Shown in pieces: positions 22,501-47,773 of a stretch of 64,000 nucleotides of DNA. Numbering within the stretch: the first letter of the stretch is position 1; every line of letters begins with the position of its first letter. Below the pieces are notes generated by a model that saw nothing but the letters and a program-made list of their open reading frames with translations, was not told the origin of the DNA and ran no database searches. The position numbers and the translations under genes were made by a program. This DNA comes from an uncultured Clostridia bacterium (GTDB lineage: Bacteria > Acidobacteriota > Aminicenantia > UBA2199): contig CAZCVI010000010.1 of assembly GCA_964502145.1 (NCBI GenBank), forward strand, positions 44,068 to 108,067, read 5' to 3'.

Positions 22501-23735
22501 TAGTCAGTGTCGCGGTTGACCCCATCGGTTTGGCTGTGGGCACTTATACAGCCAATATCACTATCACCGCCCCGCAATCAGAGAATGGTACCCTGATTGT
22601 TCCCGTTACCTTTGTGATCTATGCTCCTGATGCGACCAACGTTCCTTTCGGAGTTTTTGCCACTCCGCTTGATGGTTCCACCGTGATGAGCAGTATTCCG
22701 GTCACCGGGTGGGTGTTGGATGATATTGAAACCACCGGGGTCAAAATTTATCGTGAGCCCGTGGCCGGGGAGGGTAGTGAAAACGTTTACATTGGTGATG
22801 CCGTGTTTGTCGAGGGAGCGCGACCGGATGTGGAAACATCTTATCCCGACACCCCCTTAAATTACCGTGCGGGGTGGGGGTATATGTTGCTGACTAATTT
22901 CCTGCCTGACGGGGGGAACGGAAGCTTCACGTTGTATGCTATTGCCACGGATAAAGAGGGCAATCAGGTGACATTGGGCAGTAAGACCATCATCTGTGAT
23001 AATGCCCATGCTGTGAAACCGTTTGGAGCCATTGATACACCGGCTCAGGGTGGTACAGCCAGTGGCGCAGCTTATGTTAATTTTGGGTGGGCATTAACGC
23101 CGTTGCCCAATACTATTCCAACCGATGGTTCTACCATCACCTTGTGGGTGGATGGTGTGCCTTTGTCCGGGCACCCTGTTTACAACCAGTATCGGTCCGA
23201 TATCGCCAACTTGTTCCCCGGTTACAATAACAGTAATGGGGCCGTAGGGTATTATTACTTAAATACTACCCCTTATGCCAATGGTGTTCACACTATAGCC
23301 TGGTCAGTTAGTGATAGTGGTGGTAACAGTGATGGTATTGGTAGTCGTTACTTCACGATTCTTAATCTCACCAATGCCGATGCCCCAAAAAGCACCCGTC
23401 ACATTCCTGGTAATACCGGTTTTATCGACAGTCTACCAGAATTGGAACAGCAAGCCATTACGATCAAAGAACTGGAACAGGTAGAAATTCCATTGGGCCA
23501 GAATAATGCTACTATCCAAGGTTATTTGAAAATGGAAGACAGGTTCATTTCATTGCCAGTGGGTTCTACATTGGATCAGCAGAGTGGCACATTTTACTGG
23601 TCGGCTGGAGTGGGATTTACCGGGGAGTATCCATTGGTTTTTGTGATTCAGGGTGTTAGTGGCCAATACTATAAAAAAACAGTGGTCATCACCATTGAAC
23701 CCAAATTTAATATCAAGAACGAGTTCAACGAATAA
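19581..23735 (+). CDS. giant secreted/cell-surface repeat protein (signal peptide; 9 tandem ~92-aa FN3-like modules; 2 further FN3-like modules; Ig-like domain; BACON domain; C-terminal beta-rich region)
   Basis: AAGGAG RBS. N-terminal signal peptide 'ILKVVFILFLLTASTALMAQG'. Nine copies of '..ATLNGTVNANG.STTVTFEYG..T.YG.TVTADQSPV.G..NTAVS....GL...TTYHYRVVA.N..GT.YG.D.TFTT'. BACON-like 'LNWNISDNVSWLTCTPGSGINAGIVSVAV'. Confidence 0.8.
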   Translation: MKDYPIIQNILKVVFILFLLTASTALMAQGTPTATTDGASAITAYEATLNGTVNANGSSTTVTFEYGINTNYGRTITADQSPISGSTNTAVSKIIEELIPNTTYHYRVVAVNGNGTAYGDDMTFTTTAIAPVVTTNDADGISSTSATLNGLVNANNTSTTVTFQYGLTTAYGSTVTADQSPVTGMVETAISKTISGLTTATTYHYRAVGVNTGGTTYGEDKTFRTGTPPTAVTNAASAINISGATLNGTVNANGSSTTVTFELGINTSYGSTVTAIQSPVTGSSNTAVSYVKTGLIPNRTYHYRVVAQNVISTIYGSDMTFTTQAAAPTATTIAASDITTTTATLNGTVNAQNDSTTVTFQYGLTTAYGTTVTADQSPVNGVNNTAVSRAIGGLTDATTYHYRVVAQNGTGTTYGLDKTFHTGGSAPTATTVAATAISPTGATLNGTVNANNNETTIIFEYGLTTTYRDAVTATQSPLSTGIDTAVSAALTGLTNNTLYHYRVVAQNTLGTVYGVDLTFRTLIPATAVTNAATAIGPNGATLNGTVNANGVSTTVTFQIGLTTGYGTTFTAPQSPVSGSANTAVNYTVGSLTPNSTYHYRVVAQTFYGTIYGADRTFTTNAIAPTVTTVAATGITYTGGTLNGTVNANNASTTVTFEYGLNTGYGTTVTADQSPVNGVTNTAVSKAITGLTESTTYHYRVVGQNIGGTTNGTDMTFTTLTTTLPIVTTAQISTVTTNSAKSGGNVTADGGEVVTARGVCWATSHNPAISGSHTTNGSGTGLFTSAITGLTDNTVYYVRAYATNNRGTAYGQEVPLKTNSESVSVDITSPVQGATVSGTITIAATATAADTVQPRMVAAVKFYINNILIAEDLSAPYETQWDSHTITDGLCTLKAVAYNQSNESSQDIITFIVRNERSSIGVNRTRLDFGSNGLVCTGAQTLWIENTGTDALNWNISDNVSWLTCTPGSGINAGIVSVAVDPIGLAVGTYTANITITAPQSENGTLIVPVTFVIYAPDATNVPFGVFATPLDGSTVMSSIPVTGWVLDDIETTGVKIYREPVAGEGSENVYIGDAVFVEGARPDVETSYPDTPLNYRAGWGYMLLTNFLPDGGNGSFTLYAIATDKEGNQVTLGSKTIICDNAHAVKPFGAIDTPAQGGTASGAAYVNFGWALTPLPNTIPTDGSTITLWVDGVPLSGHPVYNQYRSDIANLFPGYNNSNGAVGYYYLNTTPYANGVHTIAWSVSDSGGNSDGIGSRYFTILNLTNADAPKSTRHIPGNTGFIDSLPELEQQAITIKELEQVEIPLGQNNATIQGYLKMEDRFISLPVGSTLDQQSGTFYWSAGVGFTGEYPLVFVIQGVSGQYYKKTVVITIEPKFNIKNEFNE
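19671..21726. repeat. intragenic tandem DNA repeats (~276-bp unit x 9) encoding the FN3-like modules
   Basis: Inferred from the nine near-identical protein modules. Boundaries are approximate. Confidence 0.6.
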
Positions 23736-24039: not shown

Positions 24040-24350
24040 TTTATACTCTCCTCTCTTGGGGGGATTTTTACCCTCAAAAGGTAATCTTACCACAGTTGTC
24101 GGTATTTTACCAGCGACCTATCACGAAAACAGGTGCGCAGGAAAAACTTTTTATTGTCCATATCGACCATTCTATCCATATCGTCCAAATAAAATTTAAA
24201 ATTATTGGCATCTCCCAATTTTTTTTCAAAATATGCTCAAAAAGTACTAATAAAAGAGTTTCACGGTTAAAAAAAGAGGTAAGAAGCTCCTTTATTTGGT
24301 ATAATATAGTATCGTCGAAAACACCTATCATACCAACAAAGGAGCTTAAA

Positions 24351-24914
24351 ATGATTATATCCGAAAACACAGAAAAAGTCAAAAAAAAAGCGTTAAGGCT
24401 GATCAATAAAATAAATTCGCGGCTTAGCAAGCCTGAAAAGAAGTTCGTTCTTGAGATGACATTGGGAATGGTACTTAGTGGAAGCAGCAATATCAGCGAA
24501 ATCGCACGTAGCCTTCAAGAACCGGTGCCACTAAAACATACTACCAAACGGCTTGAACGGATGCTAACTCACAATCATATCCTTGATATCTGCAATCAAC
24601 TATGCCTCGAAGAGAGTGTGAATAAGATTGATAAAGATACTATCATCGCCTTAGATGGAGGAGACACAGTTCATCCTTACGGGGAGGAGTTTGAGCATAT
24701 GAACCCTGTCCATGATGGTAGTGCGGGTAAAATAGAGAAAGGGTTTTGGCTTAACCAGATCAGTGGGTACAATCCCCACTCCCATGAGACGTTCCCGATT
24801 GCCCTTGATATTTACAGTACAAGTGAGCCCGGCCACAAAAGTGCCAATAATGAATCGCTCAAACTCGTTGATAGTGTTTTGCCTCTCATAAAATTGGAGT
24901 CGATGGAAAGGTAA
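24351..24914 (+). mobile_element. truncated IS4-family-like DDE transposase gene (N-terminal ~187 aa only)
   Basis: Strong RBS AAAGGAG before ATG 24351. 'IIALDGGDTVHPYGEEFEHMNPVHDGSAGKIEKGFWLNQISGY' resembles the first-Asp region of IS4-type DDE_Tnp_1. The ORF ends after 187 aa with no continuation in any frame. No terminal inverted repeats found. Confidence 0.4.
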
Positions 24915-25108
24915 TTGAGTTGATATTCGGATATGATTGCATGGACCAGCTTCAACGCTACCTGTGAGAAATCTGGGTGACGGTGCCCCGTTAGTTTTGT
25001 AAGAGATTAAAAAAAAGAGGTCTACATTCATGACAAAAAACTTCTAATGGGTGTCCCCACTATATCATTTCGGTCATCTGGAAAAATAGGGTAGGACAAA
25101 ACGCCCGT

Positions 25109-26749
25109 TTAACGACTGGGTCTGTAAATAGAATAGAGTCGTTCCAACAAAAAAAGCACGACTGCACACATGAATAAAATAGGCCATATGGGTTTGGTCC
25201 TGCCTTTGGCGGCAATAGGTTTTAGATTTTCAAGTTTTCCAGCAGAGCGGGGTTCCCGTTCGGTGTTGCCTTCATCTCTATGCAATACTAAACGATTAAC
25301 TGCAGGTGATGGCGCCTGGGGGGAGGTTAAACGATACAAGGGTGGCATGTCTCGTTTTTGCAATAACCAGCGCACGGCATTAAAAAAAACTACGATGGAA
25401 AAACGCCCGGTAATATCATTGGTTCCGCTAGGCAAACCGGGTACAAAAGCCCTGGCAGGATTTTCGGCCTGGGCTAACCAAGTGCTGCCATCCATACCAC
25501 GACACACGGGTACAAAACCTGCGGGTACATTTAGGGCAGGCAATCCCAAGGTTTCCACGACGTCGAGATTGACGTCCACTAAGAGTGGACTGGTCTCCAA
25601 GAAATCCCGGATTTCCACGGGGTTGGACCTGATCGGACCATAACCGGGCCCGATGATCAAGGTGGGAATATTGGCAGGGGTGTCTGTTCGAGTGGTTACC
25701 CTTAATTGAGGGGTGACATCATCATAAGTCCAACCCAACTGCAACATCATGTCCCGGTCAGGGATTTGCCAGTCTACGCGGATTTCCTGGCCACTACCGA
25801 TTTCTAAAACTGCACGATCATCGGAGTTATAGTCACCACCGGGAGAAAGAACAAACGTATACAAACCAGAACGGGTGGGCGCAAAACTTCCTTGCCACGT
25901 GTGGTTACGCTGCCACAGGATGGCTTCATCCTTGATTTTTGTGCCACCAGGGGCGGTGATGGAAATACTGGTAGTGGTGGGCGGCATTCCATAATAGGTC
26001 ACTTCCACCTGCACCTCGGCGACCACTCCAGTTAAGGGGTTCCGGGTGGCACGAAGAGAGGTAATACCGGTATTGTCCACGGGTAAACCAATATCACGCC
26101 AAATTATTTGGAGGTTTGGGTTTTCGGCCAGCCAAAGGGGCGCGGGGAGATCGCTGATTACCACTACATGGCTGACTTGGCAAGGTTCGGGATTTGGCGA
26201 GTGTTGCTTCAAAGAATTCAATAAACGGCGCAAGATGTCCAGATCAGTTCCTAAAGGTCGGGGAACTATATTTTTGGCAGCTTGACGTATGACTAAGGCA
26301 TCGCTGTTCTTTACGAGGTCCCGCCGTTCCAGATCAAGAGTGGAAAGCCGGAAACACAGGGGGCGGTTTTTTGCTGCTTTCTGACTGGTGGTCACGGCTT
26401 GCTCAACTTCCCGTAACGCGGCAGTCATTCGGGTTTCACCCTGCTGCCGGGTGTTCATACTGGCGGAGGTGTCCACAATAATCCATACACCGAGGGATTT
26501 ACTTTCCGCAGCATTAAACCTTCTCTCCATAAAAAAGAGAGCGGCAAGAATGGTGAGAAGAATCAGCAGTTGCATAAAAAAAGGAATGGTCAGATGGATT
26601 TTACCCCACCGGAGCCGCGGCTGCTCTTTCTGCGGGGGTGGCAGGTCCTTAAAAAAACGGGCGGCAGATAAGCGGCGGTGCAAGAACCGTGGATAGGTCA
26701 TATACACGACTACGAGTATGGCACAAGCAACGATTAGGAAAATACTCAT
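25109..26749 (-). CDS. von Willebrand factor A domain membrane protein (BatA/BatB-like)
   Basis: N-terminal TM helices, then the MIDAS motif 'IIVDTSASM'. Start overlaps the upstream DUF58 stop (ATGA). Last gene of the MoxR-DUF58-VWA operon. Confidence 0.65.
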   Translation of the reverse strand: MSIFLIVACAILVVVYMTYPRFLHRRLSAARFFKDLPPPQKEQPRLRWGKIHLTIPFFMQLLILLTILAALFFMERRFNAAESKSLGVWIIVDTSASMNTRQQGETRMTAALREVEQAVTTSQKAAKNRPLCFRLSTLDLERRDLVKNSDALVIRQAAKNIVPRPLGTDLDILRRLLNSLKQHSPNPEPCQVSHVVVISDLPAPLWLAENPNLQIIWRDIGLPVDNTGITSLRATRNPLTGVVAEVQVEVTYYGMPPTTTSISITAPGGTKIKDEAILWQRNHTWQGSFAPTRSGLYTFVLSPGGDYNSDDRAVLEIGSGQEIRVDWQIPDRDMMLQLGWTYDDVTPQLRVTTRTDTPANIPTLIIGPGYGPIRSNPVEIRDFLETSPLLVDVNLDVVETLGLPALNVPAGFVPVCRGMDGSTWLAQAENPARAFVPGLPSGTNDITGRFSIVVFFNAVRWLLQKRDMPPLYRLTSPQAPSPAVNRLVLHRDEGNTEREPRSAGKLENLKPIAAKGRTKPIWPILFMCAVVLFLLERLYSIYRPSR

Positions 26750-27705
26750 GGATTCTCCTTCATAAACAAACGTTGCAAGACGCGATCTTTGCCGAAGTGT
26801 TCTTCAAAAAAAGAGCCGGGTTGCATAAGGGTCTGTGGGGGCCACTGCCACGAAATAAAATCATTGGCCCCACGGCATACCTGTTCTTTAAAGAATTGCT
26901 TGTGGTTTTTGATACGGCTCTCTACTTCCAGCAGGGTGGGGGCATCGATTTCAAGGGGATGGTCTAGAACGGGCAGACCGGGGCCCTCTATTTTTCGGGC
27001 ACCCTGGCCTAAGAAGAATCGTTCATAAGGCCAACTATCAGTATCGACTAAGATGACCCAACGCATGCCGTCCTGGGCTTCAGCGATGCGGCGGGAGAGT
27101 TGAAGTCCATCAGAAGAAGTGGTGGGGTCAATATCAAAATAAAAATCACTGATAATCATCCAGATGACGGCAGGTTTGAGGTGGGGTTCGAGTACTCCAA
27201 GGTTGACTTTTTCAGTAGCGCAGTTGGTGGAGTAAAAGCGATTGAGAACGGGGCGGATGGCATTTAAACCACTGGCACCAAAAAGGGGTTCAAGACTGCC
27301 GCCGGGTCTACCGAATAAACGATGCAAGATCACGCGGTCAGCGGAACGTAATGTAATCCAAGCAACAGCTTCAGCGAGCCATGTGGCAATGAGTGCTTTG
27401 GGCATGGGTTCTGGTAGTAACATGGAGGGGCGGGTATCAATGGAAATGATGAGGGTGAGTTGTTCTTCGGCGACATAGGTGCGTACCAACAGGTCGTTGG
27501 CACCACCATGGCGGGCGGAAGCGCTCCAATCGACATGGCGAATATCATCGCCGGGCATATAGGGTCGATAATCATAAAACTCCAGACTCTGACCCTTACG
27601 CCGCATCTGATGACCACCGACAAGACCGGGACGCCGCTGACGGCGAGAGGAAAGACGGTAGCTTTCAAGTAATGAACGGGAGAGGGGAAGAGGGGGGGGA
27701 TTCAT
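26746..27705 (-). CDS. DUF58 protein (MoxR-associated)
   Basis: 'LEFYDYRPYMPGDDIRHVDWSASAR' is the DUF58 signature. Confidence 0.75.
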   Translation of the reverse strand: MNPPPLPLSRSLLESYRLSSRRQRRPGLVGGHQMRRKGQSLEFYDYRPYMPGDDIRHVDWSASARHGGANDLLVRTYVAEEQLTLIISIDTRPSMLLPEPMPKALIATWLAEAVAWITLRSADRVILHRLFGRPGGSLEPLFGASGLNAIRPVLNRFYSTNCATEKVNLGVLEPHLKPAVIWMIISDFYFDIDPTTSSDGLQLSRRIAEAQDGMRWVILVDTDSWPYERFFLGQGARKIEGPGLPVLDHPLEIDAPTLLEVESRIKNHKQFFKEQVCRGANDFISWQWPPQTLMQPGSFFEEHFGKDRVLQRLFMKENP

Positions 27706-27723: not shown

Positions 27724-28902
27724 CTATGCGCCTAATAATGCCTTGCGGAACTCTTCTTCAAAGATGCGGGGGTATTCATTTCCGCCGGGGGCAGTGGCAA
27801 GCGAGAAAGATTGGATGACGCGGGATAACAGGGCATCTTGCTGGGAGGCATTAAGGGTGGTTTGAGCGGTATGGGTACTAACGGCGCTTTTTTCCATGGT
27901 CAAGAAGGTTTCTTGCCAATCGAATTTTAATTTGAAGCGATGACGTAAGGTAGGAATAATAACGCGCGCCAAGGCGGGACCTTCTGCTCCCTCGGCACCG
28001 GGGATGAACATGGCAGACCACGCTTTAGCGCCCAGTAAAAGATTGGTGGCGGCACGGGGACCAAGCCCATAAACCATTAACTGCTCGACAATTTCCTTGG
28101 TTTTCTTGCGCTGGGCATCGGTAATGCCGGTCATTTCAGAGTACTTGTTGTTGGAAGCAAGAAACATGTTGAGGATATGAGTTTCCACGGCAGGGGATGA
28201 ACCCAATTGCAAAATACTCTCTTTTAATCGGTCATAAATGGAACGGGCCAGACCGGGTTCGCGGAACACGCGGAGTTTCTCCTCGGTAGGTTCGGGTTTG
28301 GCAGGTGCAGTGGAGAGGGTGCCAGCGGTTTTGTTTAAAATTAAGCGCAGGGTGCTGCTGTCGGGCACGGGAACATTGATCTTGAACATAAAACGATCGG
28401 CCTGGGCTTCGGGTAGGTTAAAGGTACCTTCATGATCAATGGGGTTCTGGGTAGCTAAAACCATAAAAGGAAGGTCGAGGGGGTATTTTTTGCCGAGGAC
28501 GGTGACCTGTTTCTCAGCCATGGCTTCCAGCATGGCAGATTGGGTTTTGGGGGTAGCGCGGTTGATTTCATCGGCCAGGAGGAGGGAGGTGAAGACCGGG
28601 CCTTTTTGGAAGACTAGCTTTTGCAGTTGCTGGCTCTCAAAATCAGGGGCATAGGTACCGGTAATATCAGCGGGCATAAGATCGGGGGTGAATTGAATCC
28701 TGCCGTAAGGTACGCCGAGGATCTGACCGAGAGTTTTAACCAGCTCGGTTTTGCCCAGGCCGGGGTTGCCTTCCAGCAAGACATGGCCTCCAGTGTAAAA
28801 CGCCACCAGGGTTAAACGGGTGACTTCATCCAGACCAAACATCTTTGACCTGACGCGTACTAATACGGCTTCTGCCAATTGTTCAATTTCTCTTTTTTGC
28901 AT
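27724..28902 (-). CDS. MoxR-family AAA+ ATPase
   Basis: 'VLLEGNPGLGKTELVKTLGQILGVPYGRIQFTPDLMPADITGT'. Stop is TAG. Confidence 0.85.
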   Translation of the reverse strand: MQKREIEQLAEAVLVRVRSKMFGLDEVTRLTLVAFYTGGHVLLEGNPGLGKTELVKTLGQILGVPYGRIQFTPDLMPADITGTYAPDFESQQLQKLVFQKGPVFTSLLLADEINRATPKTQSAMLEAMAEKQVTVLGKKYPLDLPFMVLATQNPIDHEGTFNLPEAQADRFMFKINVPVPDSSTLRLILNKTAGTLSTAPAKPEPTEEKLRVFREPGLARSIYDRLKESILQLGSSPAVETHILNMFLASNNKYSEMTGITDAQRKKTKEIVEQLMVYGLGPRAATNLLLGAKAWSAMFIPGAEGAEGPALARVIIPTLRHRFKLKFDWQETFLTMEKSAVSTHTAQTTLNASQQDALLSRVIQSFSLATAPGGNEYPRIFEEEFRKALLGA

Positions 28903-28929: not shown

Positions 28930-31161
28930 TTATTTGATGGGCCCGATGGGTTTTTTATTTTTTGCATTTGAAGCAGTTGTTTTTTGTCCGCTGGTTATAT
29001 TTAATATCCAGTTGGGTAAATATTGTTCGGGTGAGGAGGAGCGGTTGTTTTGTTTTCCGGTTTTATAACTAGCCACTGGGGCGGAATATTTTTTGGCGGG
29101 TTTGAGACGGTTACTGTTGTCTTTTAAAGATTCACCGTTACCGTCTTTAATCGCAGCAGGAAGGGGCGGAATTTTAACGGTAACCATTGGGGTGGACCTG
29201 GAAGGCAATGGGGGTTCGGGTTTGGGATCGGGTGTGGAGGCAGTCTCAGGGATATGATTGCGACTGCCTGAGCCTTGCCCTTCACCTTTTCCGCTGCCTA
29301 CTTGTCCCTTTTCTCCTTGTGCTCTCTCTTGGGCTTGCTGTCCTTGTGTTCCCGCTTGGGTTTGTCGTCCCTGCTGTCCCGACTGGGTCTGTTGTCCCTG
29401 TTGTAACTGGGCTTGCTGTCCCTGCTGTCGCGACTGGGTCTGTTGTCCCTGTTGTAACTGGGCTTGCTGTCCCTGTTGTCCCGACTGGGTCTGTTGTCCC
29501 TGTTGTCCCGATTGGGTCTGTTGTCCCTGTTGTAACTGGGTTTGCTGTCCCTGTTGTCCCGATTGGGCCTGTTGTCCCTGTCGTAACTGGGTTTGCTGTC
29601 CCTGTTGTAGCTTGGCTTGCTGTCCCTGTTGTCGCGACTGGGCCTGCTGTCCCTGTCGTAACTGGGCCTGCTGTCCCTGTTGTAACTGGGCCTGCTGTCC
29701 CTGTCGTAACTGGGTTTGCTGTCCCTGTTGTCCCGGTTGGGTCTGTTGTCCCTGTTGTAGCTTGGCCTGCTGTCTCTGTTGTCCCGATTGGGCCTGTTGT
29801 CCCTGTCGTAACTGGGTCTGCTGTCCCTGTTGTCCCGATTGGGCCTGTTGTCCCTGTCGTAACTGGGCTTGCTGTCCCTGCTGGGTCTGTTGTCCCTGTT
29901 GTAGCTTGGCCTGCTGTCTCTGTTGTCCCGATTGGGCCTGTTGTCCCTGTCGTAACTGGGCCTGCTGTCCCGGCTGTCCCTGCTGGGTCTGTTGTCCCTG
30001 TTGTAGCTTGGCCTGCTGTCCCGACTGGGTCTGTTCTCCTTCTCGTAACTGGGTTTGCTGTCCCGGCGGGGTTTGTCCTCCCTGTCGTAACTGGGCTTGC
30101 TGTCCCGGCTGGGTTTGTTCTCCCTGTTGGTTTTGTCCTTCTTGGTGTATCTGGGTTTGCTGTCCTGACTGGGTTTCTCTTCCCGGTTGACTATCCTTTC
30201 CTTGTTGACTGGTTTGGGTTCGACTTCCGGTTCTTGTATTCTCTTCCACGGCAGTACTTTCATTTCCCTGAATTTTAATATCATTTACTTCTCCTGATTG
30301 TCCATATTTTTCATTATAGCCGCGAGAAATTTCTGGATCGATATTCTCCCGGTTGTTGTTTTTTTCTTGATTGTGTGTGTAAACTTGCAATTGGCCTGTG
30401 GGCCATCCTTTAGGAACTTGGTTCCATTGCTGCGCTGTGAGTCCAAATAAAACGGTTAAAACAGCCAATGCCACAGTCACACCAAAAAGGCTGGCAAGTA
30501 CCTTGGCCCGATGTTGCCACTCTTTTTTGAACATTTGGCGCGGTAGTCCGGGGTGCCAAAGTTCCACGCCGCGCTGAGCACCCCCTGATGCGGTGCGGTC
30601 GTAAACACGGGAAATCGCCCAGATTAGGGGATAGGTTTGTTTTTGATCCCGTTGAACAGCCTGTTGGTAGCGGCAGTGCAAGATAAATGTGGCCCCGGTA
30701 TGGTCCCAAAATGTTTTTATGCCATCGGGTATGGAACTGGACCAGCACAGTCCGAGCATCTTCTTTTTTCCACTGATAAATGTACCGAAGATGGCAAAAC
30801 CAGTACAGGCGAATGCTCCGGCCCCGCATATCATCACCCACCCCCTGGGTCCGAATACCCTGAACAATCCCCAGATAGCAAAACTTGCGGTGAAAGCCCA
30901 GAAAAGGTTATGGCTGGCAAACCACAGGTTAAATAGATAACCCTGATGCCGGGCCAGGCGTTCGGGTTCACGCGGGCCCTGTTTTTTTTGGGATGTCTGC
31001 CATAGCACGAGGGTAGACATAAATAGCAGGGTAACGAGCAGGAGTAGTATCCAGGCTCCGGTGGTATAAAAGAACAGGGCAATAGCCCCGGGCAAGGCTG
31101 CAAGTAAGCCCACTGTGGCTGATAAAACAAAGAGGAATATGGGTAGTATTCGACCTTTCAT
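28930..31161 (-). CDS. membrane protein with a long poly-Gln/Gly tandem-repeat tract (first gene of the MoxR operon)
   Basis: N-terminal TM helices, then ~300 aa of 'QQGQQAQLRQGQQAQSGQQ' repeats, then a Pro/Lys-rich C-terminus. No recognisable catalytic motif. Confidence 0.55.
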   Translation of the reverse strand: MKGRILPIFLFVLSATVGLLAALPGAIALFFYTTGAWILLLLVTLLFMSTLVLWQTSQKKQGPREPERLARHQGYLFNLWFASHNLFWAFTASFAIWGLFRVFGPRGWVMICGAGAFACTGFAIFGTFISGKKKMLGLCWSSSIPDGIKTFWDHTGATFILHCRYQQAVQRDQKQTYPLIWAISRVYDRTASGGAQRGVELWHPGLPRQMFKKEWQHRAKVLASLFGVTVALAVLTVLFGLTAQQWNQVPKGWPTGQLQVYTHNQEKNNNRENIDPEISRGYNEKYGQSGEVNDIKIQGNESTAVEENTRTGSRTQTSQQGKDSQPGRETQSGQQTQIHQEGQNQQGEQTQPGQQAQLRQGGQTPPGQQTQLREGEQTQSGQQAKLQQGQQTQQGQPGQQAQLRQGQQAQSGQQRQQAKLQQGQQTQQGQQAQLRQGQQAQSGQQGQQTQLRQGQQAQSGQQRQQAKLQQGQQTQPGQQGQQTQLRQGQQAQLQQGQQAQLRQGQQAQSRQQGQQAKLQQGQQTQLRQGQQAQSGQQGQQTQLQQGQQTQSGQQGQQTQSGQQGQQAQLQQGQQTQSRQQGQQAQLQQGQQTQSGQQGRQTQAGTQGQQAQERAQGEKGQVGSGKGEGQGSGSRNHIPETASTPDPKPEPPLPSRSTPMVTVKIPPLPAAIKDGNGESLKDNSNRLKPAKKYSAPVASYKTGKQNNRSSSPEQYLPNWILNITSGQKTTASNAKNKKPIGPIK
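29286..30201. repeat. intragenic periodic DNA repeat (~27/54-bp units) encoding the poly-Q tract
   Basis: ctgtccctgttgtaactgggcttgctgtccctg... is visibly periodic. Three long overlapping ORFs on both strands here are artefacts of this periodicity. Confidence 0.8.
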
Positions 31162-31359
31162 TATGTTAGTTTTGACTTTTTATGGATATGCTGCCTATGA
31201 GTTCTTATCATTGTTTTTTTCCGGGAAAGATATTATTTTTCTTTCCTGTATTAACTATAACAAAAAGACGTCGTTTTTACAACAGGAAAGGGATTATTAA
31301 TTATGATAAAAAACTCCCCGGTATAGATGTCTTGATGTATTATTGAATAGAACTGATGT

Positions 31360-33837: not shown

Positions 33838-34869
33838 TTAGCGGGTCGAGAACTGCTTGAGAAAGCGCAAATCGCCTGAGTTGAAGCCGCGAATATCGCC
33901 AACCTTATATTTCATCATGGCGAGCCGGGTGAGTCCGAGGCCAAAGGCAAAACCGGAGTATAAATCGGGGTCTATACCACCGTAGCGCAACACGTTGGGA
34001 TGCACCATGCCACAGGGCAGAAGTTCAATCCAACCCGCATGTTTGCACGTGGAACAACCGCTACCGCCACAAATGGTACACTTTAAATCGAGCTCAAAAC
34101 CAGGTTCAACAAAAGGAAAGAAACCGGGTCTGAGACGGATTTCAATATCTTTTTTCAATATTTCTTTTAGTAACAGTTTCATAATATAAATGAGGTTGGC
34201 AATGGAGATGTTTTTATCAATCATCATGCCTTCCAGTTGGAAAAAGGTGTTTTCGTGGGAGGCGTCCATGCTTTCGTTGCGGAAGCAACGGCCTGGGGCG
34301 ATGACACGCAGGGGCGCACCAAACATTTGCATGGCGCGGATTTGACAGGGGGAGGTCTGGGTGCGTAAGCACTGTTGGTTGCTGAGCCAGTAGGTGTCTT
34401 GCATGTCACGGGCAGGATGGTGCGGGGGGATGTTCAGGGCTTGAAAATTATAAAAGTCGCTTTCCACTTCGGGGCCTTCGACAATACGGAAGCCCATGCC
34501 AGTAAACACTTTTTCCACCTCTTTTTGCACGATAGTGACGGGGTGTATTGAACCGGAAAGGAAGGATGTACCGGGCAAAGTGATATCAAAATCTCTGCCT
34601 TTGTCCAGAGTTTTGGCGATATCTTTGGATTGTAATTCCTTTTGTTTTTCTTCAATTTGGGTTTCCAGGAGGGTTTTTACCCGGTTACCTTCTTTGCCCA
34701 CTGCTTTGCGTTGTTCTTGATCGAGGTTTTTCATATCCCTGAGCATGAGGGTTAAGCTGCCTTTTTTGCCCAGGATGCTGATACGAATTTCTTCCAGTTC
34801 CTCGGCACGGGTAATGGTGTTTAACCGGGCAAGAACATTCTCTTCGATCTGTTTGATCTGGCCTATCAT
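33838..34869 (-). CDS. pheS: phenylalanine--tRNA ligase alpha subunit
   Basis: Class II aaRS motifs ('FRNE', 'GLGLTRLAMMKY'). AAGGAG RBS. Confidence 0.9.
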   Translation of the reverse strand: MIGQIKQIEENVLARLNTITRAEELEEIRISILGKKGSLTLMLRDMKNLDQEQRKAVGKEGNRVKTLLETQIEEKQKELQSKDIAKTLDKGRDFDITLPGTSFLSGSIHPVTIVQKEVEKVFTGMGFRIVEGPEVESDFYNFQALNIPPHHPARDMQDTYWLSNQQCLRTQTSPCQIRAMQMFGAPLRVIAPGRCFRNESMDASHENTFFQLEGMMIDKNISIANLIYIMKLLLKEILKKDIEIRLRPGFFPFVEPGFELDLKCTICGGSGCSTCKHAGWIELLPCGMVHPNVLRYGGIDPDLYSGFAFGLGLTRLAMMKYKVGDIRGFNSGDLRFLKQFSTR

Positions 34870-35168: not shown

Positions 35169-36785
35169 TTATTTTTTAAACTTAAGTTTGATATCACCAC
35201 GTTTACCGAGTTGCACGATATCGTCAGGCTTGACCAGGGTTTCGGTTATTTTCTGACCGTTCACGAACGTGCCATTGGTGGAGCCGAGGTCAACAATAAA
35301 GAACTGGTCGCCTTTGGGCAGGATACGCAGGTGATTCTTGGAGACAATTTCACTGTCAATATGGACGGAAGCTGTTTTGGGGTCCCGCCCGACAATTAAT
35401 GGATTGGCAGTGACATTATAAGTACCCACTTCCTCGCCTTTAATGATGACGGTGATGGTGCCAGAGATATCACCTTCCAACATGGTGCCATCTTCTGGAG
35501 CGACCTTGGTGTGATCGGCAGCGGGGTGGGGGGCTTCGGCGACGGGTGGAGCGGCTTGATGCGCGGCATCCTTGGCTGCAGAGGGACTAAATGAAACCCA
35601 TAACACCACCAGGATTAACAATATCAATACAATGGCAATAATGACAACAATTTTATTCTGCTGCCACATCTTTCCAAAGAATCCCATCTCATCGATTTTC
35701 TTTTGGATCACCTGGCTGAGTCTCTGGAGGTTGGGCTCGTTATCCATGTAGGTGAGGGAGGCATTCACCTGGCTCTGGGCATCAAACCAACGCTCTTCCC
35801 ACACGGAATCCATCAATTTATTAAACACGTTGGTGAAGTCAGAACTTTTATTGTATTCGACACCGGCATCCTGGATGAACTCCTTGGCAGAGTTGATGGG
35901 CACACAGAACTTAAAACCATCGGCCATGGTAGCGGCATAGGAGTGAACACCAATAACTTGGCCCTTGGTATCCACGGTGGGACCACCGGAATTGCCAGGG
36001 GAAGTGGCGCAATCGTGTTGAATCACGGACATACCTTTGTAATCTGTCTTAAGAGCAGAAATAGCACCCCGGGTGATGGAGGCTTTTAAGGTATTCTCTT
36101 TGCCTAACATAGGGAACCGTTGGGGATCAACGGCACCAGGAAAACCAATAGTAAACACGGGTTCTTGCAAGACGAGCTTGGAGGAATCACCGAGCATGAT
36201 CACGGGACAATTATCTCTTTCAATCTTGAGAACGGAAATATCTTTACCGCCATTCGGAATAGAGGGGCTGAATTTTTTTAGCTCGAATCTCAGGGTCTCG
36301 GAATTACTGAGGATGACATAGTTGATGGCACCATGATCGACTATCTGGGGTGACTGGTCCTTTTTGAATTTTTCAACGGCATCACTCAGTTCCTGCTGGT
36401 TGGGGTCCCTGCCGTTGGCCTTTTTAAAATCTTCTTTGATTTTATCGGCTATGGCATTGTCTAAAACTTTCTTGGCATAACCTTCTTTATCATTCATGTA
36501 CTCGTTATAGCTGTCCACGACATGGCCATTGGTCACGAGGTAACCATCGGGATTGATAAAGAAGCCGCTACCAGAGCCATAATTGGGGAGCTCTTGGGCT
36601 TGTCCACCCTGCAAGGTAAACTTAATAAACATACCGCTATAAATTAAAGCTACGGCGGGCTGAGTACGATAGGCGGTCATCTGCTCCTCGGTCAGTTTTT
36701 CGCTGGGTCCTGAGGAGCAAGAAACGGTTGTTAATATAAACGCGACGATCACAAAAAGAAAAAAAACTAATTTAGTTATCCTCAT
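35169..36785 (-). CDS. membrane-spanning fusion: lipoprotein-type signal, trypsin-like S1 serine protease domain, TM helix, cytoplasmic FHA domain
   Basis: 'LTTVSCSS' lipobox-like. His 'LVTNGHVV' and Ser 'GNSGGP' catalytic motifs. TM 'IVVIIAIVLILLILVVLWV'. C-terminal FHA 'LIVGRDPKTASVHIDSEIVSKNHLRI...FIVDLGSTNGTFVNGQ'. ATG directly follows the kinase stop (TAAATG). Confidence 0.7.
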   Translation of the reverse strand: MRITKLVFFLFVIVAFILTTVSCSSGPSEKLTEEQMTAYRTQPAVALIYSGMFIKFTLQGGQAQELPNYGSGSGFFINPDGYLVTNGHVVDSYNEYMNDKEGYAKKVLDNAIADKIKEDFKKANGRDPNQQELSDAVEKFKKDQSPQIVDHGAINYVILSNSETLRFELKKFSPSIPNGGKDISVLKIERDNCPVIMLGDSSKLVLQEPVFTIGFPGAVDPQRFPMLGKENTLKASITRGAISALKTDYKGMSVIQHDCATSPGNSGGPTVDTKGQVIGVHSYAATMADGFKFCVPINSAKEFIQDAGVEYNKSSDFTNVFNKLMDSVWEERWFDAQSQVNASLTYMDNEPNLQRLSQVIQKKIDEMGFFGKMWQQNKIVVIIAIVLILLILVVLWVSFSPSAAKDAAHQAAPPVAEAPHPAADHTKVAPEDGTMLEGDISGTITVIIKGEEVGTYNVTANPLIVGRDPKTASVHIDSEIVSKNHLRILPKGDQFFIVDLGSTNGTFVNGQKITETLVKPDDIVQLGKRGDIKLKFKK

Positions 36786-38108
36786 TTATTCCTCCTGAAA
36801 TGTGGGTGAGCTGGAAAAGCTCGAAAATTTTTCTTGAAACTTTATAATGAATTCATTGTTATGAATGGTCTGATTAGTTTTATTGTTCTGATTTTTCTGA
36901 TTGTTCAGATGGTTCTTATTATTCTGATTATTTTGATTATTTTGATACTTTGGATTGTAACCAATAGGGAGATTGCTTTCAGAGTAAGCAATGGCAATGA
37001 ATAAGAGGATCAATAGGGGGATTAATATGAATATCAGCAGCAATTTGCGTTTATCGCAGGTTTTAATGGATTTGAGTACTTTTTCCTGCACGACATTGGC
37101 ACTGGGAGAGATAGACGGCTTGATATCTGGCATTTTGACCTTGAGAAAGTTTAACGAAGGTAAATGGATGTGGGGTAATTTTTTTAATTTGGGCAAAGAT
37201 AAAAATGGTCTGGGTAATTTTATGCCTTTTGGCTTTTTAAAAGGAGCAGGACTCCCCTTTGGGGGGCTGAATTCGATGGATACGGCGTGGCCATCGAACC
37301 ATTTATCTAGTGCTTCTTTTAACGCACTGGCGTTGGGGAAACGCTGGGCGGGATTTTTAGCGAGAGCTTTCATAATCAATTCATCAATAGGCTTGGGAAT
37401 GGTGGGGCTCAGCTCGGATGGTTTGGGGGGAATTTGTTCCAGGTGGGCTTTTTGAATTTCAAAATGGCTGCCAGTGGGACTTTTAAAGGGCGTGGCACCG
37501 GTGAGCATTTCATAGAGGGTAACACCGATGGAATACACGTCGGCGGCAGCATCCACAGGTTGGCCGAGGATTTGTTCGGGGGCGGAATATAGGGGGGTAC
37601 CCAGTGGGGAACCGATCCGGGTTAACCCATCAATACCCTCGACCTTGGCAATCCCGAAATCACCGATTTTAATTTGGCCATGGCAGGTAATAAAAATATT
37701 GGCGGGTTTGATGTCCCGGTGCAACACGCCGCGACTGTGGGCGTAATTGAGACCGTCCAGAATGCGCGACACAATAGATAATGCCTGAGGCAGGGGAATT
37801 TTCCCGGATTCTTTAATAATGCTTTTGAGGGTCTGCCCCTCAATATATTCCATGACGATATAATAACTATCTTGCTGCTGATCAAAGGCATGGATGGTGA
37901 CGATATTGGCATGATTGAGCCGGGCTTGGGCAATAGCCTCTACTTTGAACCGCGCCATTAAACGGGGATTCTTGGTCAACTGGGGGGAGATGATCTTGAT
38001 GGCCACTTCCCGCTCAAGGGTGATATCCTTGGCCAAGTACACGGAACCCATACCGCCTTCGCCGAGCTTTTTAAGAATTCGATAATTGCCTAAACTTTGA
38101 CCTTCCAT
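36786..38108 (-). CDS. Hanks-type Ser/Thr protein kinase, membrane-anchored, Asn/Gln-rich tail
   Basis: 'LGEGGMGSVYLAKD...VAIK', 'HRDIKPANI', 'DFGIAKV'. TM helix near the C-terminus, then an 'NNQNNQNNKN' low-complexity tail. Confidence 0.85.
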   Translation of the reverse strand: MEGQSLGNYRILKKLGEGGMGSVYLAKDITLEREVAIKIISPQLTKNPRLMARFKVEAIAQARLNHANIVTIHAFDQQQDSYYIVMEYIEGQTLKSIIKESGKIPLPQALSIVSRILDGLNYAHSRGVLHRDIKPANIFITCHGQIKIGDFGIAKVEGIDGLTRIGSPLGTPLYSAPEQILGQPVDAAADVYSIGVTLYEMLTGATPFKSPTGSHFEIQKAHLEQIPPKPSELSPTIPKPIDELIMKALAKNPAQRFPNASALKEALDKWFDGHAVSIEFSPPKGSPAPFKKPKGIKLPRPFLSLPKLKKLPHIHLPSLNFLKVKMPDIKPSISPSANVVQEKVLKSIKTCDKRKLLLIFILIPLLILLFIAIAYSESNLPIGYNPKYQNNQNNQNNKNHLNNQKNQNNKTNQTIHNNEFIIKFQEKFSSFSSSPTFQEE

Positions 38109-38117
38109 TTTGCCTCT

Positions 38118-39098
38118 TCACTGGGGGTGGCTGGGAGTGGTGACGATCAAGTAAAAAATAATAGCACCCAACAGCAGTACCAGCAATCCTAACAGTAGAA
38201 ATAAACCGATTCTACGTCGTTTTTTCACGACTGGAACGGAGATAGAAGAAGTAATAGAAATAGGAACGGTATCGGTGAGATCGGTATTCTGGTGGGAATG
38301 GGTGCCATTTTCAGTAGAAACCACAATAACGGTGATATTATCGGGGCCACCGTTTTTTTTGGCTTCCTGGATCAACTGCTTGGCTATGGAGGCGTGTGAT
38401 GGACCGGAAAGAATTTCTCTGATATCGTTGTCCGGCACGACACCGTAAAGACCATCGGAGCATAATATATATTTCTGGCCTTTTTTAATGGGGATAGGTG
38501 GAAGTATCTGGATAGTGATTTGTGCCTTAGAGCCGATGGATTGATAGATAACGTTTCGTCTGGGGTGGTTGCGGGCTTCTTCCTCGTTAATCAAGCCGTC
38601 CTTGAGCAATTTCCCCACAAAGCTGTGATCCTCGGTCAACTGAACGAATTGGGGAATGGATTCGGGGCGGGTGCTGTCATTGGGCAGGGATTGAACATAG
38701 GACTTAATAGCAGCGGAACCGTTGGAATAGCGGTAAATCCGGCTGTCACCGACATGTCCGATGTAGCCGAGATCGCCTTGCACATACAACACGGAAAGGG
38801 TAGTGCCCATGCCGCTTTTTTTACTCATCTGGGTGCTTTCAAGGTAAAGCATATCGTTGATTTCATTGATGAGAGACTCTAAATCAATGGGAATGTTGTT
38901 TTTTCTATTTTTTTCTATTTTATGGACGAGCTCAGTCACAGCACTGCGACTGGCAACCTCGCCAGCATTGTGCCCACCCATGCCATCGGCCACGATAAAC
39001 AGGTATTCCTCGTTCCCAATTTTCCCGGCAAATTGGTAATCCTCGTTGTTGGGCCTGGCATTACCGACATCGGATAGACCGGTATAAAATAATTCCAT
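38118..39098 (-). CDS. PP2C-family Ser/Thr phosphatase with C-terminal TM anchor
   Basis: 'GNARPNNED', 'FIVADGMGGHNAGEVAS', 'DGL'. C-terminal hydrophobic helix. Confidence 0.8.
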   Translation of the reverse strand: MELFYTGLSDVGNARPNNEDYQFAGKIGNEEYLFIVADGMGGHNAGEVASRSAVTELVHKIEKNRKNNIPIDLESLINEINDMLYLESTQMSKKSGMGTTLSVLYVQGDLGYIGHVGDSRIYRYSNGSAAIKSYVQSLPNDSTRPESIPQFVQLTEDHSFVGKLLKDGLINEEEARNHPRRNVIYQSIGSKAQITIQILPPIPIKKGQKYILCSDGLYGVVPDNDIREILSGPSHASIAKQLIQEAKKNGGPDNITVIVVSTENGTHSHQNTDLTDTVPISITSSISVPVVKKRRRIGLFLLLGLLVLLLGAIIFYLIVTTPSHPQ

Positions 39099-39112
39099 GG
39101 TTTTTTATTTTT

Positions 39113-39472
39113 CTATTCTATTTCTGTGGATATGGATGGGTCTTCAATAAACTTGACCAAGAAATCTATACCCGCGGTATTAAAAAGGGTCTCATCGATG
39201 ATTTTCTCTTTAAATACGGGTTGGTTCTCAATGAATAGACCGGCGTTACTGTCCAGATCAGTGATCCATATGGCTGTCTGGGTATAGCGGATACTGAAGT
39301 GAAAGGGCTCCAAGCGGTCATCGGGTAAATAGATATCTGCATAGTGGCTGGAGCCAACAACGGTTTTACCGGCAAATAGCCGGTAATCTCTGCCTTTCCA
39401 TGGTCCGTTCAATACTAACAGCCACCCTATTAATTCGCGCTCATCTTCCAATACGGTTTTATCGTTATTCAT
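39113..39472 (-). CDS. FHA-domain protein
   Basis: 119 aa. 'GRDYRLFAGKTVVGSSHYADIYLPDDRLEPFHFSI...ITDLDSNAGLFIENQPV'. Stop is TAG. Confidence 0.7.
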   Translation of the reverse strand: MNNDKTVLEDERELIGWLLVLNGPWKGRDYRLFAGKTVVGSSHYADIYLPDDRLEPFHFSIRYTQTAIWITDLDSNAGLFIENQPVFKEKIIDETLFNTAGIDFLVKFIEDPSISTEIE

Positions 39473-39475
39473 GGG

Positions 39476-40057: not shown

Positions 40058-40181
40058 ATCACACTCCGACACTAGCGAAACATCGTTTTATGAAATTCAC
40101 TGCTTTTGTCTCTATACTTAGCTTCTTCATGTACAGAACTTTACCACCCTGTAAAAAAAATGTCAAGTTTTTTCCGATTTT

Positions 40182-44538: not shown

Positions 44539-44545
44539 GTTTTTC

Positions 44546-46770: not shown

Positions 46771-46779
46771 TGGTGCGCC

Positions 46780-47622: not shown

Positions 47623-47624
47623 GG

Positions 47625-47700
47625 ATTGCCTGGGGAATTATGGGAATGGGAGTTATGGGAATTATGGGAAGAATGGGGGTTATGGGAAAAGAGGGGTAGT
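47625..47700. repeat. tandem 9-bp array (TTATGGGAA-like units x ~7) in the pylSc 5' leader
   Basis: gaattatgg gaatgggag ttatgggaa ttatgggaa gaatggggg ttatgggaa, read directly. Confidence 0.8.
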
Positions 47701-47773
47701 GGTGTGTGAGCCAGCGGTTTGGGTAATCTGTTTAAATTGCTTGCCATATTATACCTACTCAAACTAATAAACG

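What the first reader, a model, noticed from the sequence alone, without database searches (positions are those of the whole stretch)
28930..31161. Poly-Gln tandem-repeat membrane protein leading a MoxR-DUF58-VWA (Bat-like) operon
The first gene of the operon has N-terminal TM helices followed by ~300 residues of near-perfect QQGQQAQLRQGQQAQSGQQ repeats. These are encoded by a highly periodic DNA tract (29286-30201) that generates three spurious overlapping ORFs. Such long poly-Q tracts are rare in bacteria. The tract is slippage-prone, so it could act as a length-variable (phase-variable) spacer or a disordered tether. MoxR/VWA systems act as chaperone or metal-insertion modules. A disordered Q-rich partner is not a described component.
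Basis: seen in the sequence. Interest (0 to 1): 0.5.

Follow-up and report, generated by a model that had tools for sequence, protein, structure and literature searches.

The report
Gln-rich tether subunit of MoxR operon
The glutamine-repeat gene is real and belongs to an unannotated, multi-phylum family of membrane proteins that always sits in front of one type of MoxR ATPase operon, and the poly-Gln tract is just this lineage's version of a long floppy spacer joining a conserved membrane anchor to a conserved C-terminal docking peptide.

Summary
Observation confirmed. ORF 28930-31161 (-) encodes 743 aa: a five-helix membrane domain, about 450 disordered residues including a 282-aa tract with 48% Gln built from imperfect tandem repeats, and a conserved C-terminal end. 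MoxR, DUF58 and a weak VWA/BatA-like membrane protein follow in one tight operon.

The new point is that this is not an oddity. An exhaustive HMMER search found 69 representative relatives, all unnamed. They share three parts:
- an N-terminal domain (AlphaFold pLDDT 92.6, with no Pfam, NCBIfam or PDB match);
- a hydrophobic-poor, Gly-rich linker of 147-680 aa whose composition is free (Gln 2-40%; this window is the extreme);
- two C-terminal motifs, 'VTVxLPPL' and 'QxLPNWI', at fixed spacing.

In all 17 loci examined the gene lies directly upstream of a MoxR clade that carries a C-terminal extension.

Five other assemblies of the same strain give 620, 743 or 791 aa, or break inside the repeat. 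All differences are clean in-frame unit deletions. This is either real length polymorphism or short-read collapse. It is not on/off phase variation.

Best reading (confidence about 0.5): an extracytoplasmic, length-tunable tether subunit that links the cytoplasmic MoxR-DUF58 machine to periplasmic VWA partners. It is a new variant of a known kind of system.

The parts
31254..31282 (-). Promoter-like site (TTGTAA-17-TATAGT, with TG) about 90 nt upstream of the X start codon
   Evidence: Consensus scan only. Not evidence of function.
28930..31161 (-). Gene X: 743-aa membrane protein, made of an N-terminal five-helix domain, a disordered Gln-rich linker and a C-terminal bipartite motif
30376..31161 (-). 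X N-terminal domain, aa 1-262. Helices span residues 2-22, 26-59, 66-103, 107-128 and 207-238, with a small helical subdomain at residues 129-206. Invariant residues are C139, W140 and R164; near-invariant residues are F77, W80, F81, D172, E214 and R218.
   Evidence: AlphaFold2 pLDDT 92.6 and pTM 0.90. Conservation. No Pfam, NCBIfam or PDB match.
30172..30375 (-). Non-repetitive polar start of the linker, aa 263-330
   Evidence: Composition; pLDDT about 45-54
29326..30171 (-). Gln-rich tandem-repeat tract, aa 331-612. Units of 6 or 8 aa, a 17-aa (51-nt) super-unit and a 48-aa (144-nt) higher-order unit.
   Evidence: Site of all length differences between assemblies.
29161..29184 (-). C-terminal motif 1, VTVKIPPL (family pattern [ILVM]x[LIV][DE][LIV]Px[LMF]), lying 45 aa before motif 2
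28996..29031 (-). C-terminal motif 2, PEQYLPNWILNI (family pattern PxQx[LIV]P[NA]W[IV]xx[LI]). Q713, P716 and W718 are invariant. Predicted short helix at 717-724.
27724..28902 (-). MoxR-type AAA+ ATPase, 392 aa, with the C-terminal extension typical of the X-associated clade
   Evidence: Pfam AAA_3 E=1e-57. Clade association.
26746..27705 (-). DUF58 protein, 319 aa, with no membrane helix
   Evidence: Pfam DUF58 E=3e-13; hydropathy
25109..26749 (-). Y: 546-aa membrane protein with two N-terminal helices and one C-terminal helix, and a DTSAS MIDAS-like motif. The VWA_2 and BatA hits are weak.
   Evidence: Orthologues of 536-583 aa occupy the same position in the related loci that extend far enough.
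25045..25062 (-). Terminator-like hairpin after Y
   Evidence: Consensus scan only
29187..30284 (.). Three shadow ORFs created by the periodic tract: 29187-30278 (+), 29258-30190 (+) and 29298-30284 (-)
   Evidence: They have no conserved flanks, unlike the Gln frame.

Best explanation
Gene X encodes a conserved inner-membrane subunit of one specific subtype of MoxR-DUF58-VWA system.

**Shown**
1. X belongs to a family with three parts: a well-folded five-helix N-terminal domain, a long linker depleted of hydrophobic residues, and a bipartite C-terminal peptide module ('VTVxLPPL', then about 45 aa, then 'QxLPNWI', 5-31 aa from the end).
2. The linker varies freely in length (147-680 aa) and in composition. 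It has been built several times independently from different tandem repeats. The Gln-rich repeat here is this lineage's version and is the most Gln-rich of all.

**Inferred**
- By the positive-inside rule the protein is N-in with five spans. The conserved residues would then face the cytoplasm, where MoxR and DUF58 are.
- The linker and the C-terminal module would be extracytoplasmic. That is the side on which BatA-type VWA domains and the TgpA transglutaminase domain are placed: experimentally for Borrelia BB0173, by prediction plus proteomic data for TgpA.
- The linker would act as an entropic, length-tunable tether. It would let the C-terminal peptides dock on an extracytoplasmic partner (Y, Z or the envelope).
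- The membrane domain would couple that contact to the ATPase.
For: **Family and architecture**
- 69 representative relatives at E<=1e-3 among 1.84 billion proteins.
- Sequences and motifs.
- Invariant residues C139, W140, R164, Q713, P716 and W718 in a 40-sequence alignment.
- N-terminal domain pLDDT 92.6. Residues 257-708 have pLDDT below 50, and there is a short helix at the LPNWI motif.

**Linker**
- Median hydrophobic fraction 5%, against 44% in the N-terminal domain. Median Gly 19%. Gln ranges from 2 to 40%, with the window highest.
- Independent tandem repeats occur in L004, L005, L025, P0063, P0073 and P0005.

**Gene context**
- X lies directly upstream of MoxR in every locus with enough sequence: the window, L081/L082, L086-L091, L001, L002, L004, L005, L008, L009, L025 and L026.
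- X is absent from MoxR loci L013-L080 apart from L025 and L026.

**Topology**
- The three segments predicted to face the cytoplasm carry 17 Lys/Arg; the two short loops predicted to face outward carry 1.
- In P0037 and P0073 the same N-terminal domain is followed by the extracytoplasmic part of TgpA plus a transglutaminase core.
- The TgpA domain is periplasmic (PMC3507681). The BB0173 VWA domain is periplasmic (PMC5700661).

**General mechanism**
- A MoxR hexamer uses a VWA adaptor whose MIDAS site grips an acidic residue on a membrane-protein target (NorQ/NorD, PMC9976466).
Against: - No direct evidence of any protein-protein contact. I could not run a multimer prediction.
- The topology is only predicted.
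- The window's motif 1 has Lys where most relatives have Asp or Glu.
- The window's operon lacks Z, so Z cannot be the sole partner.
- Y's VWA assignment is below threshold.
- The family also occurs in Chloroflexota, which may lack a classical periplasm. 'Extracytoplasmic' is therefore safer than 'periplasm-spanning'.
- The host lineage is unresolved.
Confidence: 0.5

Rival explanations
1. The disordered tail is cytoplasmic and is itself the handle or substrate that the MoxR AAA+ ring grips or threads. The C-terminal LPNWI peptide would be the recognition tag.
For: - AAA+ remodellers often start on disordered segments (general knowledge).
- X is specific to one MoxR clade that carries an extra C-terminal extension.
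- The motifs are as conserved as the core of the N-terminal domain.
Against: - The positive-inside count strongly favours N-in with five spans, which places the tail outside.
- The fusion variants P0037 and P0073 put a TgpA-type transglutaminase region after the same fifth helix. TgpA's transglutaminase region is described as periplasmic.
Confidence: 0.15
2. The Gln- and Lys-containing linker is a transglutaminase substrate. It would be cross-linked to itself or to envelope components to form a covalent matrix.
For: - Gln and Lys are the two residues that a transglutaminase joins.
- MoxR-DUF58 operons elsewhere carry TgpA, whose domain has transglutaminase activity in vitro (PMC3507681).
- P0073 combines the X N-terminal domain, a transglutaminase core and eleven GGGQGQ(G/S)KQ repeats in one chain.
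Against: - Gln is not conserved in the linker: the family median is 10%, and several members have only 2%.
- No transglutaminase gene lies in this operon.
- Most 'transglutaminase-like' bacterial domains act as peptidases (general knowledge).
Confidence: 0.08
3. The C-terminal end (motif, short hydrophobic stretch, basic tail) is a sorting or processing signal of the LPXTG or PEP-CTERM type. The tail would be cleaved and attached elsewhere.
For: The layout is tripartite: LPNW, then 5-9 hydrophobic residues, then a Lys/Arg-rich tail.
Against: - The hydrophobic stretch is far too short to span a membrane.
- The tail after the motif is only 5-31 aa.
- No sortase or exosortase gene is in any of the operons.
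Confidence: 0.05
4. X is a contingency locus. Repeat slippage would switch or vary an exposed antigen or phage receptor.
For: The repeat is the main site that differs between otherwise near-identical assemblies, apart from 4-13 SNPs in the ORF 24096-24914 region.
Against: - All units and indels are multiples of 3, so there is no on/off switching.
- The differences could be assembly collapse.
- The protein is anchored in the inner membrane and is not predicted to be surface exposed.
- The operon partners are housekeeping-like envelope factors, with no PADLOC match beyond weak AAA similarity.
Confidence: 0.04
5. The tract is an assembly artefact or non-coding repeat, and the long ORF is spurious.
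For: Three of five other contigs end inside the repeat, and complete versions differ in length.
Against: - The tract is present in six independent assemblies.
- Both flanks of the same frame are conserved in 69 relatives.
- All relatives carry an equivalent low-complexity linker.
Confidence: 0.01

Closest known systems
Bat-type MoxR-DUF58-BatA/VWA operons (Bacteroides fragilis BatI, Borrelia BB0170-BB0176, Rhizobium leguminosarum RL3499-RL3502)
   Same: - A MoxR AAA_3 ATPase followed by DUF58, then membrane proteins with extracytoplasmic VWA domains.
- Envelope-related phenotypes are reported for these systems (PMC5700661 and the references in it).
   Different: - No BatB, BatC, BatD or BatE genes here.
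- The BatA and VWA hits of Y are below threshold.
- An extra, conserved first gene (X) is not part of any described Bat operon.
- The MoxR belongs to a distinct clade with a C-terminal extension.
TgpA (PA2873) of the PA2875-PA2874-PA2873 operon in Pseudomonas aeruginosa
   Same: - A polytopic inner-membrane protein co-transcribed with PA2875 and PA2874. That these two genes encode MoxR and DUF58 is from my own recall; the paper does not use the term MoxR.
- It has a large extracytoplasmic part.
- Two X-family members (P0037, P0073) carry a TgpA-like transglutaminase region after the X N-terminal domain.
   Different: - The X N-terminal domain is not TgpA_N: there is no HMM hit in that region, and hhalign gives a probability of 1.4%.
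- The window protein has no transglutaminase core.
- The gene order differs: X comes before MoxR, TgpA after DUF58.
TIGR02302 / DUF4175 (alphaproteobacterial membrane proteins with Gln/Gly-rich low-complexity regions; description recalled from memory)
   Same: N-terminal membrane helices followed by a long Gln/Gly-rich low-complexity region predicted to lie outside the membrane.
   Different: None of 50 family members, nor 6 GTDB members including those of Azospirillum, hits TIGR02302 or PF13779. There is no shared domain.
TonB / TolA
   Same: Architecture only: a membrane anchor coupled to an energy source, a long extended periplasmic spacer of low complexity, and a C-terminal element that binds a distal partner.
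   Different: - No sequence or fold relation.
- The energy source here would be a cytoplasmic AAA+ ATPase rather than ExbBD or TolQR.
- The C-terminal element is a pair of short peptides, not a folded domain.
NorQ/NorD, RavA/ViaA, CbbQ/CbbO (MoxR with a VWA adaptor)
   Same: A MoxR hexamer works through a VWA-fold adaptor that grips a target, which can be a membrane protein (PMC9976466). DUF58 would play the adaptor role here.
   Different: Those systems are wholly cytoplasmic and have no disordered transmembrane tether subunit.

Membership tests
MoxR-DUF58-VWA (Bat-like) operon | MoxR-class AAA+ ATPase (Pfam AAA_3) | tested here: met
   AAA_3 E=1e-57, 194 bits against a cut-off of 27
MoxR-DUF58-VWA (Bat-like) operon | DUF58 protein immediately after MoxR | tested here: met
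   DUF58 E=3e-13, 49.9 bits against a cut-off of 23.4; 18-nt gap
MoxR-DUF58-VWA (Bat-like) operon | Membrane protein with a BatA N-terminal domain and a VWA domain with MIDAS | tested here: inconclusive
   VWA_2 scores 21 bits (cut-off 27) and BatA 17.6 bits (cut-off 25.9). The DTSAS motif and the 2+1 helix layout are present.
MoxR-DUF58-VWA (Bat-like) operon | BatB/BatC (TPR), BatD and BatE genes | tested here: not met
   The operon ends after Y. The next ORFs are on the other strand.
TIGR02302 / DUF4175 | Match to the family HMM | tested here: not met
   No hit at E<=0.01 in 50 members, nor at E<=0.1-1 in the GTDB members
TgpA / TgpA_N (PF11992) | N-terminal membrane domain homologous to TgpA_N | tested here: not met
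   No Pfam hit on the X N-terminal domain. hhalign of the X family against five TgpA_N proteins gives probability 1.4%. In P0037 the TgpA_N match begins only at the fifth helix.
TgpA / TgpA_N (PF11992) | Transglutaminase core domain | tested here: not met
   Absent from the window protein. Present only in the variants P0037 and P0073.
Phase-variable contingency gene | A repeat whose copy-number change shifts the reading frame or promoter spacing | tested here: not met
   Unit lengths are 18/24/27/51/144 nt, and all observed indels are multiples of 3
Phase-variable contingency gene | Copy number differs between cells or strains | tested here: inconclusive
   Versions of 620, 743 and 791 aa, plus broken contigs, occur in assemblies of the same strain. 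Short-read collapse is not excluded.
C-terminal sorting signal (LPXTG / PEP-CTERM type) | A motif followed by a membrane-spanning hydrophobic segment and a basic tail, with a cognate sortase nearby | tested here: not met
   The hydrophobic stretch is 5-9 aa and the tail 5-31 aa. No sortase-like gene is in any of the loci.
Known anti-phage defence systems (PADLOC) | Match of the components to defence-system models | tested here: not met
   Only weak AAA similarity of MoxR to IetA and mad8. X, DUF58, Y and Z have no hit.
New family: X (five-helix domain, linker, LPNWI) | N-terminal domain, hydrophobic-poor linker, bipartite C-terminal motif, and a position directly upstream of MoxR | tested here: met
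   All four features are present in the window protein

The most novel reading that the evidence does not exclude
X, together with MoxR and DUF58, forms an ATP-driven trans-envelope tether that works like TonB or TolA but is powered by a cytoplasmic AAA+ ring.

1. DUF58 would grip the invariant acidic and basic residues on the cytoplasmic face of the five-helix domain.
2. ATP hydrolysis would remodel that domain.
3. The change would be passed through a spacer of tunable length to the C-terminal LPNWI peptide.
4. That peptide would dock on, or be released from, periplasmic VWA proteins or the cell wall.

If so, this would give the long-enigmatic Bat/MoxR envelope systems a concrete mechanical role.
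Probability: 0.15. Interest if true: 0.8.

Novelty: new variant of a known kind. Interest (0 to 1): 0.5.

Why it matters
- **An open question.** MoxR-DUF58-VWA (Bat-like) operons are widespread. They affect envelope integrity and stress tolerance, yet no mechanism is known for them.
- **What this adds.** This finding defines a conserved, unannotated extra subunit for one subtype. It has a confidently predicted new membrane domain, a linker that evolution treats as a pure spacer, and two short peptides conserved as strongly as the fold. That gives precise handles for experiment: point mutants in C139/W140/R164 and Q713/P716/W718, and linker-length swaps.
- **Tractable hosts.** Cultured bacteria carry family members (Azospirillum brasilense, Niveispirillum, Cohaesibacter marisflavi), so the hypothesis can be tested.
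- **General lesson.** It is also a clean natural example of repeated, independent tandem-repeat growth of a bacterial disordered linker.

Tried and rejected
- **Word-indexed search.** A search with the X N-terminus returned nothing, although a 100%-identical protein is in that collection. This is a limit of the candidate cap, not absence. The exhaustive HMMER search succeeded.
- **Exact look-up.** The 743-aa product is not on record. Looking up MoxR instead found the same strain in five assemblies.
- **afdb50 fold library.** Not available.
- **TIGR02302 / DUF4175.** This lead came from memory and was rejected by hmmscan.
- **TgpA_N.** Homology was rejected by hhalign.
- **PADLOC.** Negative.
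- **Collagen-like hit.** The NCBIfam SclB hit (E=8.5e-4, 18 bits against a cut-off of 325) is a composition artefact. Gly spacing is 3/6/8, not a regular 3.
- **Host lineage.** An attempt through PheS and cluster names gave only 'MAG: bacterium', with about 69% identity to Ruminiclostridium.
- **Z gene.** A search of the window for the ~890-aa double-VWA gene found none.
- **Model coordinates.** These are not exposed, so I could not check whether the C-terminal helix packs on the N-terminal domain.
Full report
**1.

- The minus strand carries an ORF at 28930-31161 that encodes 743 aa.
- Hydropathy finds hydrophobic spans at residues 2-57, 107-129 and 218-244. AlphaFold resolves five long helices: 2-22, 26-59, 66-103, 107-128 and 207-238.
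- Residues 331-640 are 48% Gln and 17% Gly.
- The tract 29326-30171 translates to 282 aa made of GQQ[AT]Q[LS] units, with or without a trailing RQ or QQ. Identity peaks at lags of 17 and 48 residues.
- Tandem Repeats Finder gives arrays over 29328-30186 with periods of 18 to 93 nt and 72-82% matches. The repeat finder gives 25 in-register copies. The repeats are therefore imperfect rather than 'near-perfect'.

**2. The operon**

MoxR, DUF58 and a 546-aa membrane protein (Y) follow on the same strand.

| Gene | Coordinates | Pfam result |
|---|---|---|
| MoxR | 27724-28902 | AAA_3, E=1e-57 |
| DUF58 | 26746-27705 | DUF58, E=3e-13 |
| Y | 25109-26749 | VWA_2 and BatA, both below threshold |

- Gene spacings are 27 nt, 18 nt and a 4-nt overlap.
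- Y has a DTSAS motif, two N-terminal helices and one C-terminal helix.
- A promoter-like site precedes X and a terminator-like hairpin follows Y. These are consensus matches only.

**3. The protein is not an orphan**

- An exhaustive phmmer search with residues 1-267 against 1.84 billion representative proteins gave 69 hits at E<=1e-3 and 15 at E<=1e-30. Every one that carries a name is called 'hypothetical protein'.
- Upstream genes in MoxR loci from reference genomes belong to the same family. These come from Acidobacteriota, Chloroflexota, and the Alphaproteobacteria Azospirillum, Niveispirillum and Cohaesibacter.
- All complete members share one plan:
  - an N-terminal membrane domain of about 260 aa;
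  - a low-complexity region;
  - motif 1, [ILVM]x[LIV][DE][LIV]Px[LMF];
  - a gap of mostly 42-51 residues;
  - motif 2, PxQx[LIV]P[NA]W[IV]xx[LI], lying 5-31 residues from the C-terminus.
- In a 40-sequence full-length alignment the only invariant columns are C139, W140 and R164 in the N-terminal domain, and Q713, P716 and W718 in motif 2.

**4. The linker is a spacer, and poly-Gln is incidental**

- Across 47 non-redundant members the linker is 147-680 aa long, with a median of 329.
- Its hydrophobic fraction has a median of 5%, against 44% in the N-terminal domain. Gly has a median of 19%. Net charge is usually negative.
- Gln ranges from 2% to 40%, and the window protein is the most Gln-rich.
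- Different members have built their linkers from unrelated tandem repeats:
  - GEAQP pentapeptides in L004;
  - units of about 40 aa in L005;
  - GGGQGS in L025;
  - a 21-aa unit in P0063;
  - GGGQGQGKQ in P0073.
- AlphaFold on the full-length protein keeps the N-terminal domain confident. Residues 257-708 have pLDDT below 50. A short helix at 717-724, on motif 2, has pLDDT of about 65-69.

**5. The N-terminal domain looks new**

- With a 50-sequence alignment AlphaFold gives pLDDT 92.6 and pTM 0.90.
- No Pfam or NCBIfam model matches it, in the window protein or in any of 50 relatives.
- I recalled that TIGR02302/DUF4175 proteins are membrane proteins with Gln/Gly-rich low complexity. I tested this lead and it failed.
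- Two members, P0037 and P0073, replace most of the linker with a TgpA-like region and a transglutaminase core. Even so, a profile-profile comparison of the X family with TgpA_N proteins gives a probability of 1.4%. The X domain is therefore not TgpA_N.

**6. Gene context is strict**

- In the window species, and in L086, L087, L088, L089, L090/L091, L001, L002, L004, L005, L008, L009, L025 and L026, X lies directly upstream of MoxR on the same strand. In L088 one small GYF_2 gene sits between them.
- The MoxR genes of these loci are the closest relatives of the window's MoxR. They match it out to residues 377-389.
- MoxR loci L013-L080 mostly align only to about residue 330 (exceptions include L015-L017, L019 and L054). 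Apart from L025 and L026, they have no X within 10 kb.
- The window operon ends after Y. No Z-like gene is in the 64 kb. In the syntenic relative L087, Z lies after an inserted Y1 transposase gene.

**7. Topology (inferred)**

- The segments predicted to face the cytoplasm are the N-terminus, the loop at 56-72 and the subdomain at 129-206. Together they hold 17 Lys/Arg.
- The two tight loops predicted to face outward hold 1.
- This gives N-in with five spans, so the linker and the motifs lie outside the cytoplasm.
- The conserved residues F77, W80, F81, C139, W140, R164, D172, E214 and R218 then sit on or near the cytoplasmic face.
- The same rule places the large domain of Y outside. This agrees with the experimentally mapped periplasmic VWA domain of Borrelia BB0173 (PMC5700661).
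- The fusion of the X domain to a TgpA-type region agrees as well. That region is described as periplasmic in Pseudomonas (predicted, with proteomic support) and the purified domain is active in vitro (PMC3507681).

**8. Length variation**

- The exact MoxR protein of the window occurs in five other assemblies. There the X gene is 791 aa (L081) or 620 aa (L082), or it is cut by a contig end inside the repeat (L083, L084, L085).
- Relative to L081, every version differs only by clean in-frame deletions, with zero substitutions in the gene:

| Assembly | Deletions relative to L081 (nt) |
|---|---|
| window | 144 |
| L082 | 453 + 9 + 51 |
| L084 | 144 + 123 |
| L083 | 102 |

- The 20 kb of flanks are otherwise identical, apart from a few SNPs near ORF 24096-24914. 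These assemblies are therefore the same strain, and the repeat is its main variable site.
- Members of another 90%-identity cluster also differ in length: 612, 628 and 643 aa.
- Several of the contigs come from k=141 short-read assemblies, and the higher-order unit is 144 nt. Collapse by the assembler could give the same picture. Only long reads can decide.
- Either way, the frame is never broken. The 'phase-variable' reading fails; 'length-variable' remains possible.

**9. How it most likely works**

- *Shown:* a conserved three-part protein tied to one MoxR clade.
- *Established elsewhere:* MoxR hexamers act through a VWA-fold adaptor that binds an acidic residue on a target, which can be a membrane protein (NorQ/NorD, PMC9976466).
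- *Inferred:*
  - DUF58 is the cytoplasmic adaptor.
  - The cytoplasmic face of the X domain is the docking or remodelling site.
  - The disordered linker is an entropic tether outside the membrane. By my own rough estimate, about 450 residues give a random-coil end-to-end distance of some 15-20 nm.
  - The two C-terminal peptides fold on binding to a partner, with Y as the first candidate.
- I put this at about 0.5. The descriptive parts I hold at about 0.9.
- The rivals are a cytoplasmic tail gripped by MoxR, a transglutaminase substrate, a sorting signal, a contingency locus and an artefact. They are weighed in their own section.

**10. Verdict**

- The finding is real and more interesting than a compositional oddity, but the poly-Gln itself is not the point.
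- It marks an undescribed, conserved subunit of a subtype of the known MoxR-DUF58-VWA systems.
- No literature I could search describes such a component.
- Novelty: a new variant of a known kind. Interest: 0.5.

Noticed in passing
window 43654-50141 (-): A complete bacterial pyrrolysine cassette lies on the minus strand:
- PylD (43654-44538);
- an ATP-grasp PylC-like gene (44546-45685);
- a radical-SAM PylB-like gene (45682-46770);
- a 280-aa class II aaRS, PylS-like (46780-47622);
- tRNA-Pyl with anticodon CUA (47773-47845);
- an MttB-family gene (48618-50141) with an Rfam PYLIS_3 match at 49037-49136.

Oddly, that MttB ORF runs 507 aa with no in-frame TAG.
   Followed up: partly
window 35169-41945 (-) and 19581-23735 (+): A Ser/Thr kinase, PP2C and FHA/trypsin cluster lies just upstream of pheST and the X operon. 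A 1384-aa FN3-repeat protein lies just downstream. The kinase cluster is also next to the X operon in the distant relative L090 and in L087. The bifidobacterial PFNA cluster likewise joins a Ser/Thr kinase, FN3, MoxR, DUF58 and a transglutaminase, and there the kinase phosphorylates the MoxR ATPase (PMC12067865).
   Followed up: partly
L086 (P0037) and P0073: Variants of the X family have a TgpA-like region and a transglutaminase core inserted after the fifth helix. P0073 also carries eleven GGGQGQ(G/S)KQ repeats after the enzyme domain. The P0037 operon (L086) otherwise has the same MoxR-DUF58-Y-Z order; the context of P0073 was not examined.
   Followed up: partly
window 24096-24914 (+): This 272-aa ORF has no Pfam match and sits between the operon and the FN3 gene. 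Apart from the X repeat, it is essentially the only place where the window differs by SNPs from other assemblies of the same strain (4-13 SNPs; L083 also has 3 elsewhere).
   Followed up: no
[not shown]
   Followed up: no
window 33838-34869 (-): The host lineage is unresolved. PheS has relatives of 78-82% identity labelled at most 'MAG: bacterium'. The nearest named relatives are Ruminiclostridium, at about 69%.
   Followed up: partly
L025 (Niveispirillum sp. SYP-B3756) 7760-9679: The X homologue in this isolate genome contains a run of N inside its GGGQGS repeat and loses the frame after it. The reference assembly itself could not resolve the linker repeat.
   Followed up: no
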